DNA of 20,747 nucleotides from Escherichia coli. Lineage in GTDB: Bacteria; Pseudomonadota; Gammaproteobacteria; Enterobacterales; Enterobacteriaceae. The notes beneath the pieces were generated by a model. The model saw only the letters and a list, made by a program, of their open reading frames with translations. It was not told where the DNA came from and did not search any database. Made by a program: the position numbers and the translations under genes. The stretch's first letter is position 1. Each line of letters starts with the position of its first letter. The DNA is taken from NCBI RefSeq assembly GCF_003334765.1, contig NZ_QOWT01000049.1, one strand, 5' to 3'. Below, piece after piece: positions 14,014 through 14,294 of the stretch.

Positions 14014-14294
14014 AGTAATAATGCCGATGTCAGTCTTTACCACCACTTAGTTTGCCGTTTAACCAGATTGGTGTGATTACTGATGCAGTGAAGACCTTCC
14101 CGCATCCTGACTCACACAGCGATCGACCTTTTGTGTCCTGCCCTGGACCCGTCGGTTGCCGGAAGCGCCTTCATGCGAGGCATCTCCTCACCGATGCGCG
14201 TGACTCAAGAAGGGCCTGACGGCTTGTCTCGTTACTGTCCTGTCCGGGTTATCTGTCTGGAGATTCAACTCTGTTTCCTCACAGGAGCTCTGTC
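14014..14294 (+). ncRNA. Candidate bridge RNA (non-coding left arm of the IS110-family element)
   Basis: 281-bp GC-rich non-coding region immediately 5' of the IS110-family recombinase gene; position corresponds to where IS110-subgroup elements (for example IS621) encode their bridge RNA. Not folded or searched; assigned by position only. Confidence 0.3.

What the first reader, a model, noticed from the sequence alone, without database searches (positions are those of the whole stretch)
14014..14294. Bridge-RNA candidate in the 5' non-coding arm of the nested IS110-family element
Seen in sequence: a 281-bp GC-rich non-coding arm precedes the recombinase gene and only 16 bp follow its stop. 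The only track ORF here (14131-14373) runs into the transposase start in another frame and has no protein-like features. Established knowledge: IS110-subgroup elements such as IS621 encode a structured bridge RNA in this arm, whose two loops base-pair with target and donor DNA to program recombination. Inference: this region should encode such an RNA, and its target-binding loop should be complementary to the IS911 orfB sequence around 14005-14020 and 15380-15395, explaining insertion into a conserved transposase gene.
Basis: partly seen in the sequence, partly recalled or inferred. Interest (0 to 1): 0.55.

Follow-up and report, generated by a model that had tools for sequence, protein, structure and literature searches.

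The report
Bridge RNA of an ISEc21-like element
The non-coding left arm of this small mobile element encodes a folded guide RNA that base-pairs with both its insertion site (a conserved motif in another transposase gene) and its own ends; this is real, but already described for the near-identical element ISEc21.

Summary
The observation and the interpretation both hold. A 1374-bp IS110-family element (14014-15387) sits precisely, with no duplication, between the Asp and Gln codons of the HSDQG motif of IS911 orfB. It has a 281-bp left arm, and 16 bp follow the recombinase stop.

The arm encodes a bridge RNA of about 230 nt: a 5' stem-loop, a target-binding loop, a linker hairpin and a donor-binding loop.
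- LTG (14115-14124) equals the left flank plus one base.
- RTG plus three bases (14138-14148) is the exact reverse complement of 15385-15395.
- LDG (14208-14215) equals the right end.
- RDG (14231-14239) pairs with the left junction.

Across 61 distinct relatives, 92.7% of cells pair, against 35-43% in slid controls. The guides covary with flanks and ends. A covariance model built without this element type hits only 14085-14262 (E 4e-32).

The recombinase is 97% identical to TnpEc21, and all guide segments match ISEc21. The ISEc21 non-coding-arm RNA ("seekRNA") was shown experimentally to program the same target, so this is already known.

Not in that paper: comparative support for a donor-binding loop, handshake triplets, and unequal donor and target cores. 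Some relatives (not this element) carry a second left-target guide.

The parts
14014..15387 (+). IS110-family insertion sequence (ISEc21-like), 1374 bp, with no inverted repeats and no target duplication
   Evidence: The joined flanks are 100% identical to intact IS911. It is 92-93% nt identical to copies annotated ISEc21, and 247 E. coli records are >=99% identical. In PLSDB, 860 plasmid records encode a protein >=99% identical.
14295..15371 (+). Recombinase gene (358 aa; DEDD RuvC-like domain plus Tnp domain)
   Evidence: It scores 195 bits against NCBIfam NF033542 'IS110 family RNA-guided transposase' (cut-off 140). It is 97% identical to the published TnpEc21. PF01548 and PF02371 are recorded for 99-100% identical proteins.
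14029..14084 (+). 5' stem-loop of the bridge RNA
   Evidence: Single-sequence fold. The outer stem is conserved in relatives, with covariation at A2 columns 17-19/78-80.
14088..14174 (+). Target-binding loop module: long basal stem (14088-14111 with 14151-14174), internal loop, distal 3-bp hairpin (14125-14127 with 14135-14137)
   Evidence: In helices 1-3, 12 of the 15 basal-stem pairs show changes on both sides and 93% of cells are paired.
14115..14124 (+). Left target guide (LTG), CACAGCGAUC. [quoted passage not shown]
   Evidence: It covaries with the left flanks of relatives (0 of 5000 permutations reach the observed score). In ISEc21 this segment was reprogrammed experimentally.
14138..14148 (+). 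Right target guide (RTG), CUGCCCUG (14138-14145), plus handshake triplet GAC (14146-14148). Together they are the reverse complement of GTC|CAGGGCAG (15385-15395).
   Evidence: 11-nt exact match, p about 0.0005. The RTG covaries with the right flank. The triplet covaries with the third-last base of the right end (8 A/A, 45 G/G, 5 discordant; Fisher p 3e-6).
14177..14189 (+). Linker hairpin between the two loops (GAGG 14177-14180 with CCUC 14186-14189)
   Evidence: Helix 4: 99% of cells paired, and 3 of 4 pairs change on both sides.
14191..14255 (+). Donor-binding loop module: basal stem 14191-14197 with 14248-14255 (weak in this element), inner stem GAC 14202-14204 with GUC 14242-14244, distal hairpin 14218-14221 with 14225-14228
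   Evidence: Helices 5-7. The basal stem has 5 of 7 pairs changed on both sides in relatives. The region is nearly invariant across recombinases of 68-99% identity.
14208..14215 (+). Left donor guide (LDG), AGAAGGGC, identical to right-end bases 15377-15384
   Evidence: Both copies are invariant in nearly all relatives, so the match is conserved but covariation cannot be assessed.
14231..14239 (+). Right donor guide (RDG), GUUACU (14231-14236), plus handshake triplet GUC (14237-14239). It pairs with top strand GAT|AGTAAT (14011-14019), using G-T wobbles.
   Evidence: Guide position 4 covaries with base 4 of the element (47 A-U, 16 C-G, 0 broken), and position 3 has U-G and C-G variants. 0 of 5000 permutations reach the observed score.
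14005..14013 (+). Left target half-site in IS911 orfB (CACAGCGAT = His-Ser-Asp codons)
   Evidence: Same target as ISEc21.
15388..15395 (+). Right target half-site in IS911 orfB (CAGGGCAG = Gln-Gly-Ser codons)
15368..15387 (+). Right end. TTGACT (15368-15373, overlapping the stop codon) is a -35 box that, once the ends are joined, lies 17 bp from AATAAT (14017-14022). The donor half-site AGAAGGGCGTC is 15377-15387.
   Evidence: Sequence. A junction promoter in the circle was reported for ISEc21. TTGAC and AGAAGGGC(G/A)TC are conserved in relatives.

Best explanation
**What it is.** The left arm of this ISEc21-like IS110 element encodes a bridge RNA (called 'seekRNA' by the group that studied ISEc21) of roughly 230 nt, about 14029-14255, on the + strand.

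**Transcription (inferred).** The RNA is probably made from the promoter created when the ends are joined in the excised circle (TTGACT-17 bp-AATAAT). Read-through from IS911, which is co-oriented, may also contribute.

**Target-binding loop.**
[quoted passage not shown] **Donor-binding loop.**
[quoted passage not shown] **Strand exchange.** The 358-aa DEDD/Ser recombinase bound to the RNA cuts the top strands after GAT in the target and after GTC in the donor, then swaps them. Each swapped strand is caught by a 'handshake' triplet in the opposite loop. GAC in the target loop pairs with donor GTC. GUC in the donor loop pairs with target GAT or GAC.

**Result.** The element inserts exactly between the Asp and Gln codons of the HSDQG motif (second D of DDE) of IS3-family transposase genes. 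This is a harmless landing site for the host, and it travels on plasmids.

**Shown here.** Exact boundaries, the four complementarities, the conserved structure with covariation, and guide-to-flank and guide-to-end covariation.

**Shown by others for ISEc21.** The arm is needed for circle formation and transposition. The RNA co-purifies with the recombinase. Reprogramming the left guide retargets insertion.

**Inferred.** Function of the donor loop and handshake triplets, the transcription start, and top-strand-first chemistry.
For: - **Insertion.** Exact insertion with no duplication.
- **Complementarities and their chance levels**.
- **Similarity to ISEc21.** The arm is 93% identical to the published ISEc21 non-coding arm with all guide segments identical, and the recombinase is 97% identical.
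- **ISEc21 experiments and target** CACAGCGATCAGGG. ISEc21 is listed with a predicted bridge RNA in the left end by Durrant et al..
- **Conservation.** The arm is conserved at nucleotide level in 76 upstream regions of relatives.
- **Structure.** 92.7% of cells paired against 35-43% when partners are slid; 23 of 36 pairs change on both sides; 0 of 500 shuffles reach the observed values.
- **Held-out covariance model.** One hit, 14085-14262, E 4e-32.
- **Guide covariation.** Guide/flank and guide/end permutation tests give 0 of 5000. RDG covariation is 47 A-U to 16 C-G with none broken. Handshake covariation has p 3e-6.
- **Insertion context.** Every full-length copy listed in E. coli lies inside IS3-family/DDE transposase genes.
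- **Mechanistic analogy.** The bridge-RNA base-pairing scheme, handshake guides and top-strand cleavage are described for IS621 (PMC11208160, PMC11208158).
Against: - No expression data for this copy.
- Single-sequence folding of the whole arm is no better than shuffles (z = -0.55).
- No sigma-70-like promoter lies in the arm in the integrated state.
- The donor-loop basal stem is weak in this element (three non-standard pairs in the CM alignment).
- LDG and the right end are both invariant, so their pairing has no covariation support.
- In ISEc21 a 58-nt RNA (nt 90-147), covering only the target loop, sufficed for detectable movement of a mini-element flanked by target sequence. The donor loop has therefore not been shown to be required in this lineage.
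- Donor and target do not share a core dinucleotide, unlike IS621.
- The covariation statistics are not corrected for phylogeny.
Confidence: 0.9

Rival explanations
1. Target-loop-only 'seekRNA' model. Only a short RNA (58-74 nt, about 14103-14160) is the active guide. It recognises the target, and also the target-derived flanks around the donor copy. The downstream conserved block (14191-14255) is not a donor guide but a leader or regulatory element for the recombinase mRNA.
For: For ISEc21, the most abundant recombinase-bound RNA was 74 nt. A 58-nt RNA (nt 90-147) supported movement of a mini-element carrying only 29 bp of left end and 16 bp of right end. Movement required target-like flanks around the donor.
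Against: The block is the most conserved part of the arm across recombinases only 68-75% identical. Its 3' strand covaries with the first bases of the element (47 A-U to 16 C-G, none broken; 0 of 5000 permutations). Its 5' strand equals the right end. The target loop carries a triplet that covaries with the right end, which only makes sense if donor and target are bridged. A later preprint attributes the TBL-only events to partial, direct top-strand transfer that coexists with a full bridge-RNA pathway.
Confidence: 0.08
2. The arm is simply a 5' untranslated leader and promoter region, and the matches to the flanks are chance or relics of earlier recombination with IS3-family sequence.
For: Single-sequence folding energy is not exceptional. 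The arm does carry the -10 half of the junction promoter and a Shine-Dalgarno-like GGAG before the start codon.
Against: Both target matches together occur in about 0.05% of shuffles. The two matches are on opposite strands, flanking a conserved hairpin, which is not what captured target DNA would look like. They covary with the flanks in 58 independent insertions. Structure covariation is strong. ISEc21 was reprogrammed experimentally.
Confidence: 0.02
3. The arm encodes a small protein (ORF 14131-14373, 80 aa, or 14052-14219, 55 aa).
For: The ORFs exist.
Against: Only 15 of 61 distinct relatives keep any + frame open across the core. Core lengths differ by amounts that are not multiples of three (24, 19 and 18 sequences in the three length classes). 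Substitutions follow base-pairing rather than codon structure.
Confidence: 0.01

Closest known systems
ISEc21 and its seekRNA (Siddiquee et al. 2024, Nat Commun, PMC11187229)
   Same: [quoted passage not shown] The recombinase is 97% identical. The non-coding arm is 93% identical, and LTG, RTG, LDG, RDG and both handshake triplets are identical. Insertion occurs without duplication, and a junction promoter forms in the circle.
   Different: About 92-93% nucleotide identity overall, so by the usual ISfinder thresholds, as I recall them, it would be a separate, closely related IS. It may be ISKpn60, which sits next to ISEc21 in that paper's identity matrix, but I could not verify this. Most differences lie in the 5' stem-loop and in hairpin loops. 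That paper describes only the target-matching segments, not a donor-binding loop.
IS621 bridge RNA (Durrant et al. 2024, PMC11208160; Hiraizumi et al. 2024, PMC11208158)
   Same: Encoded in the left end, upstream of a DEDD/Ser recombinase. [quoted passage not shown] Handshake bases follow the 3' guides.
   Different: No detectable sequence relationship was tested or claimed. This RNA has an extra linker hairpin between the loops. The distal stems are only 3-4 bp. Donor and target do not share a core dinucleotide (target ..GA-T|, donor ..GT-C|), so no bases are repeated at the two junctions, whereas IS621 is flanked by CT on both sides. The recombinase is larger (358 against about 326 aa) and lies in another branch of the family.
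ISMch6 (natural retargeting of an ISEc21 relative, PMC11187229)
   Same: Same clade. Changes in the left guide accompany a changed flank. generalises this pattern to 58 loci.
   Different: ISMch6 has a different guide and target. The window element keeps the ISEc21 guide.
IS1111-group seekRNAs/bridge RNAs (ISEc11, ISKpn4, ISPa11)
   Same: An RNA-guided DEDD recombinase, with guide segments for both strands of the target.
   Different: In those elements the RNA is encoded downstream of the recombinase in a long right end, the order of the strand-specific guides is reversed, and subterminal inverted repeats are present. Here the long arm is upstream and only 16 bp follow the stop.

Membership tests
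IS110 family, IS110 subgroup (insertion sequence) | Recombinase with an N-terminal DEDD RuvC-like domain (PF01548) and a C-terminal Tnp domain (PF02371) carrying a conserved Ser | tested here: met
   NF033542 scores 195 bits against a cut-off of 140. PF01548 and PF02371 are recorded for 99-100% identical proteins. D15, E64, D102, D105 and S276/S277 are invariant in the alignment of relatives.
IS110 family, IS110 subgroup (insertion sequence) | Long non-coding left end, short right end, and no terminal inverted repeats | tested here: met
   281 bp against 16 bp. The ends AGTAATAATG... and ...AGAAGGGCGTC are not inverted repeats.
IS110 family, IS110 subgroup (insertion sequence) | Sequence-specific insertion in one orientation | tested here: met
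   All listed full-length copies lie in IS3-family/DDE transposase genes. In the 58 relatives with usable flanks, the left flank ends in a GAY (Asp) codon.
Bridge RNA (as defined for IS621) | Structured RNA in the non-coding end: a 5' stem-loop plus two stem-loops with internal loops, conserved with covariation | tested here: met
   92.7% paired, 23 of 36 pairs with changes on both sides, 0 of 500 shuffles; held-out CM, E 4e-32.
Bridge RNA (as defined for IS621) | Target-binding loop: the 5' side matches the top strand of the left target and the 3' side is complementary to the top strand of the right target | tested here: met
   10 nt and 8 (11) nt. Covariation with flanks.
Bridge RNA (as defined for IS621) | Donor-binding loop: the 5' side matches the right end and the 3' side is complementary to the left end | tested here: met
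   LDG is 8 nt and identical to 15377-15384, but invariant, so no covariation can be assessed. RDG covaries with the element's first bases.
Bridge RNA (as defined for IS621) | Identical core dinucleotide in donor and target (CT in IS621), repeated at both junctions | tested here: not met
   The target reads GA-T|C and the donor junction GT-C|A, and no base is duplicated. Junctions carrying the other partner's two bases were not found: the best full-length hits in 5426 E. coli genomes are 98%, which is the observed junction. This lowers 'works exactly like IS621', not 'is a bridge RNA'.
Bridge RNA (as defined for IS621) | Handshake guides 3' of RTG and RDG that pair with the non-cognate DNA after strand exchange | tested here: met
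   GAC (14146-14148) is complementary to donor GTC and covaries with it. GUC (14237-14239) is complementary to target GAC/GAT (table).
Bridge RNA (as defined for IS621) | The RNA is expressed and bound by the recombinase, and reprogramming the loops retargets recombination | not testable with these tools
   Shown for the target-loop part of ISEc21 by others. Not shown for the donor loop.
Bridge RNA (as defined for IS621) | Hit by the published bridge-RNA covariance models | not testable with these tools
   Rfam 15 gives no hit in the arm, even at E<=10. The authors' models are not available here. Their supplementary table lists ISEc21 with a predicted RNA in the left end.
ISEc21 itself (same IS name) | At least about 95% nucleotide and 98% amino-acid identity to the reference (ISfinder convention, from memory) | tested here: not met
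   92-93% nt identity to copies annotated ISEc21 and 97% aa identity. It is therefore a closely related but distinct IS, or a borderline isoform.

The most novel reading that the evidence does not exclude
The clade this RNA belongs to has evolved a way to widen its target range. About half of the relatives (30 of 58 loci) carry a second left-target-guide-like segment in the 5' stem-loop. This has the form UGAC-YCN-[9 nt]-N-GAC and lies in the apical loop in single-sequence folds. Its 9-mer belongs to a different codon class from the guide in the target-binding loop: Ser AGY or Thr ACN against Ser TCN. The flanks of these elements match one guide or the other (11 against 19, never neither). In contrast, 26 of 28 single-guide elements, including the window's, sit only in sites of their one class. 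If the second segment really acts as an alternative guide sharing the same right guide, one bridge RNA would program two target classes. The window element would be the single-guide form, and its 5' stem-loop the homologue of that module.
Probability: 0.5. Interest if true: 0.6.

Novelty: already known. Interest (0 to 1): 0.25.

Why it matters
As a discovery it adds little. The guide RNA of ISEc21, with the same guides and the same target, has been characterised experimentally. NCBI already names this protein an 'IS110 family RNA-guided transposase'.

It is still a clean, fully resolved natural example. An RNA-guided element homes to the catalytic-motif codons of other transposase genes, which is a safe harbour that also disables a competing IS. 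It is very common on enterobacterial plasmids: 860 PLSDB records encode a protein at least 99% identical.

The comparative analysis adds three points of modest interest for this lineage.
- Covariation evidence for a donor-binding loop and handshake triplets, which the ISEc21 study did not describe.
- Donor and target lack a common core, and only one junction type is seen in thousands of genomes. This fits recent claims of top-strand-driven insertion.
- A possible dual-guide variant exists in relatives.

Tried and rejected
- **Rfam.** Scans at gathering threshold (whole window) and at E<=10 (13900-15500) gave nothing in the arm, only chance snoRNA-like matches inside the recombinase gene.
- **Single-sequence folding.** Folding the whole arm gave z = -0.55, which is uninformative. 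Structure had to come from comparison.
- **Right boundary.** My first value (15389) was off by two bases and was corrected to 15387.
- **RNAalifold.** The automatic consensus missed the donor-loop basal stem and proposed pairs inside LDG. It also 'paired' the element's first five bases with RDG. I read that as the guide-donor complementarity, not as RNA structure. The final structure was set by hand and then tested.
- **Shared core.** I looked for a shared core dinucleotide or a shared TCAG and found that no placement fits the observed junctions (sequence).
- **Alternative junctions.** I searched for junctions expected from bottom-strand-derived products and found none.
- **Coding hypothesis.** Rejected.
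- **Promoter.** No sigma-70-like promoter was found in the integrated arm.
- **Naming.** I tried to identify the element as ISKpn60. Its sequence is not in the held supplements and the papers were uninformative.
- **Literature.** A phrase search for a second or dual target-binding loop found nothing relevant. This is weak evidence of absence.

Full report
**Observation.** The recombinase ORF is 14295-15371 (358 aa). Upstream of it lie 281 bp with no convincing gene, and 16 bp follow the stop codon. The element is 14014-15387. Joining the 100 bp on either side gives a 200-nt sequence that is 100% identical to intact IS911 copies in E. coli (all eight listed hits; 1582 records at 99% or more). 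The insertion is therefore exact, lies between GAT (Asp) and CAG (Gln) of the HSDQG motif of orfB, and has no duplication. The arm is only slightly richer in G+C than its surroundings (53% against 48.6%). The ORF 14131-14373 exists. It is not conserved: 46 of 61 distinct relatives have no open + frame across the region, and length differences are not multiples of three.

**Identity.**
- The recombinase passes the NCBIfam model 'IS110 family RNA-guided transposase'.
- It is 97% identical to the published ISEc21 transposase.
- The whole element is 92-93% identical to copies annotated ISEc21 and at least 99% identical to 247 E. coli records, each inside an IS3-family transposase gene in the listed cases.
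- Proteins at least 99% identical are encoded on 860 PLSDB plasmids, mostly from Klebsiella.
- The arm is 93% identical to the ISEc21 non-coding region printed in Supplementary Table 1 of Siddiquee et al..

**What is known.** Siddiquee et al. (PMC11187229) reported the following for ISEc21.
- The upstream non-coding region is required for circle formation and transposition.
- An RNA from it co-purifies with the transposase.
- A 58-nt piece (nt 90-147) suffices for detectable movement.
- Changing the left segment retargets insertion.
- Insertion makes no duplication, and the joined ends create a promoter.

Durrant et al. list ISEc21 among the elements with a predicted bridge RNA in the left end.

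**Guides in the window.**
- LTG: CACAGCGATC at 14115-14124 equals the top strand of the left flank 14005-14013 plus the first base of the right flank.
- RTG: CTGCCCTG at 14138-14145 is the reverse complement of 15388-15395. With the next three bases (GAC, 14146-14148) it is an 11-nt exact complement of the right junction GTC|CAGGGCAG (15385-15395).
- LDG: AGAAGGGC at 14208-14215 equals right-end bases 15377-15384.
- RDG: GTTACTGTC at 14231-14239 pairs, with two G-T wobbles, with the left junction GAT|AGTAAT (14011-14019).

In shuffles of the arm, the 10-nt match has p about 0.005, the 11-nt match p about 0.0005, and both target matches together p about 0.0005. All these segments are identical in ISEc21.

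**Structure.** I fetched 80 loci encoding recombinases 68-99% identical, from enteric bacteria to alpha-proteobacteria. The non-coding arm is detectable by nucleotide similarity in 76 of them. On 61 distinct sequences, a hand-set structure of 36 pairs was tested. It comprises the target-loop basal stem and distal hairpin, a linker hairpin, and the donor-loop basal stem, inner stem and distal hairpin.
- 92.7% of cells form standard pairs, against 35-43% when partners are slid by 1-3 columns.
- 23 pairs change on both sides.
- None of 500 column shuffles reaches any observed measure.

These figures are not corrected for relatedness, but the slid controls keep relatedness. A covariance model built from 57 relatives, with every window-type and ISEc21-type sequence left out, finds one hit in the 20.7-kb window. 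It covers 14085-14262 on the + strand at full length, with 147.6 bits and E 4e-32. In this element the donor-loop basal stem is the weakest helix.

**Guides covary with DNA.** Across 58 loci with clean flanks, each guide matches its own flank or end better than those of other loci. For LTG, RTG and RDG, 0 of 5000 permutations reach the observed score.
- Base 4 of the element (A or C) is always matched by the RDG (47 A-U, 16 C-G, none broken). Base 3 has matching U-G and C-G variants.
- The triplet after the RTG tracks the third-last base of the right end (8 A/A, 45 G/G, 5 discordant; p 3e-6).
- This is the handshake arrangement described for IS621, where bases 3' of RTG and RDG pair with the incoming strand of the other DNA.

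The conserved block at 14191-14255 therefore behaves as a donor-binding loop, which the ISEc21 paper did not describe.

**Difference from IS621.** IS621 is flanked by the same CT core on both sides, and its top strands are cut just after that core. Here the two bases before the top-strand breakpoints differ (target AT or AC, donor TC), and nothing is repeated at the junctions. If bottom strands were exchanged two bases away, half of the products should carry the other pair of bases. Queries built with those alternative junctions find only the observed junction: the best full-length hits are 98%, meaning two mismatches, among 5426 complete E. coli genomes. This fits a recent preprint reporting that IS110 integration is dominated by top-strand transfer. 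The same preprint reports that target-loop-only RNA supports a partial 'direct transfer' pathway, which its authors use to reconcile the seekRNA and bridge-RNA reports. I treat this as inference, not demonstration.

**Expression.** No sigma-70-like promoter is found in the arm as integrated. Joining the ends gives TTGACT (15368-15373), 17 bp, then AATAAT (14017-14022), consistent with the junction promoter reported for ISEc21. The element is co-oriented with IS911 orfAB, so read-through is possible. This is inference only.

**Side finding.** Thirty of 58 relatives, but not the window element, carry a second LTG-like segment in the 5' stem-loop. It is flanked like the real one (UGAC..[9 nt].GAC) and lies in the apical loop in single-sequence folds.
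- Its 9-mer belongs to another codon class than the target-loop guide: CACAGCGAT or AACACCGAT against CACTCYGAT.
- Flanks of these elements match the target-loop class in 11 loci and the second segment's class in 19, never neither.
- By contrast, 26 of 28 single-guide elements sit in their own class (Fisher p 7e-6).
- A phrase search found no description of this.

**Verdict.** Interest is low to moderate.

Noticed in passing
Relatives, e.g. L045:1175-1260, L026:1185-1260, L053:1190-1265 (not in the window element): A second left-target-guide-like segment (GAC-UCA-CACAGCGAU-C/G-GAC or ..AACACCGAU..) lies in the 5' stem-loop of 30 of 58 relatives, in the apical loop in single-sequence folds. Insertion flanks match either this segment (19 loci) or the target-loop guide (11), never neither. 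In contrast, 26 of 28 single-guide elements match their only guide. It may be an alternative guide covering another serine or threonine codon class.
   Followed up: partly
window 14011-14016 and 15385-15390: Donor and target share no core dinucleotide (target GA-T|CA, donor GT-C|AG), and no base is duplicated. Junctions carrying the partner's two bases were not found in 5426 E. coli genomes. This differs from IS621 (CT on both sides) and fits top-strand-determined products.
   Followed up: partly
window 14076-14083: The 3' arm of the 5' stem-loop (ATTACTGA) is the reverse complement of the joined ends TC|AGTAAT, an 8-nt match spanning the circle junction. An 8-mer of this kind appears in about 9% of shuffles. 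It is seen only in the enterobacterial group, so it may be chance.
   Followed up: no
L015 (Paraburkholderia panacisoli) left flank; L039-L041 (Pusillimonas/Neopusillimonas) both flanks: These copies do not sit in a transposase motif. L015 follows ..CAGAAGGGCCTG, which looks like the LDG region of another copy. L039-L041 lie between a right-end-like GTAGAAGGGGTC and a left-end-like AGTAAAAGAATG, that is, at an end-to-end junction of a related element. This suggests recombination at donor-like sites.
   Followed up: no
ISEc21 non-coding region as printed in PMC11187229 Suppl. Table 1, compared with window 14151-14155: The printed ISEc21 sequence reads GTGCG where the window and the two genomic ISEc21-type loci examined here (L004, L006) read GTCGG. 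GTGCG would break the conserved CUGAC/GUCGG stem. It is probably a typographical or text-extraction error, or a variant of the cloned copy.
   Followed up: no
window 753-858 (+) and 1721-1800 (-): There are Rfam hits above gathering score to RNAI, the antisense RNA of ColE1-type plasmid replication control (59.9 bits), and to the Hfq-binding sRNA isrK (56.8 bits).
   Followed up: no
window 1918-12699 (+): There is a run of five large co-oriented ORFs (955, 334, 795, 542 and 956 aa). The last has only a weak local match to a BPTD_3080-family restriction endonuclease model (92 bits against a cut-off of 800). It could be a restriction or defence operon, but this was not examined.
   Followed up: no
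window 16158-20276 (+): A 1372-aa autotransporter has a GDSGSP serine-protease motif and a C-terminal beta-barrel (TIGR01414, 253 bits), which looks like a SPATE-type protease. The identical left IS911/IS110 junction occurs in E. coli 042 among others.
   Followed up: no
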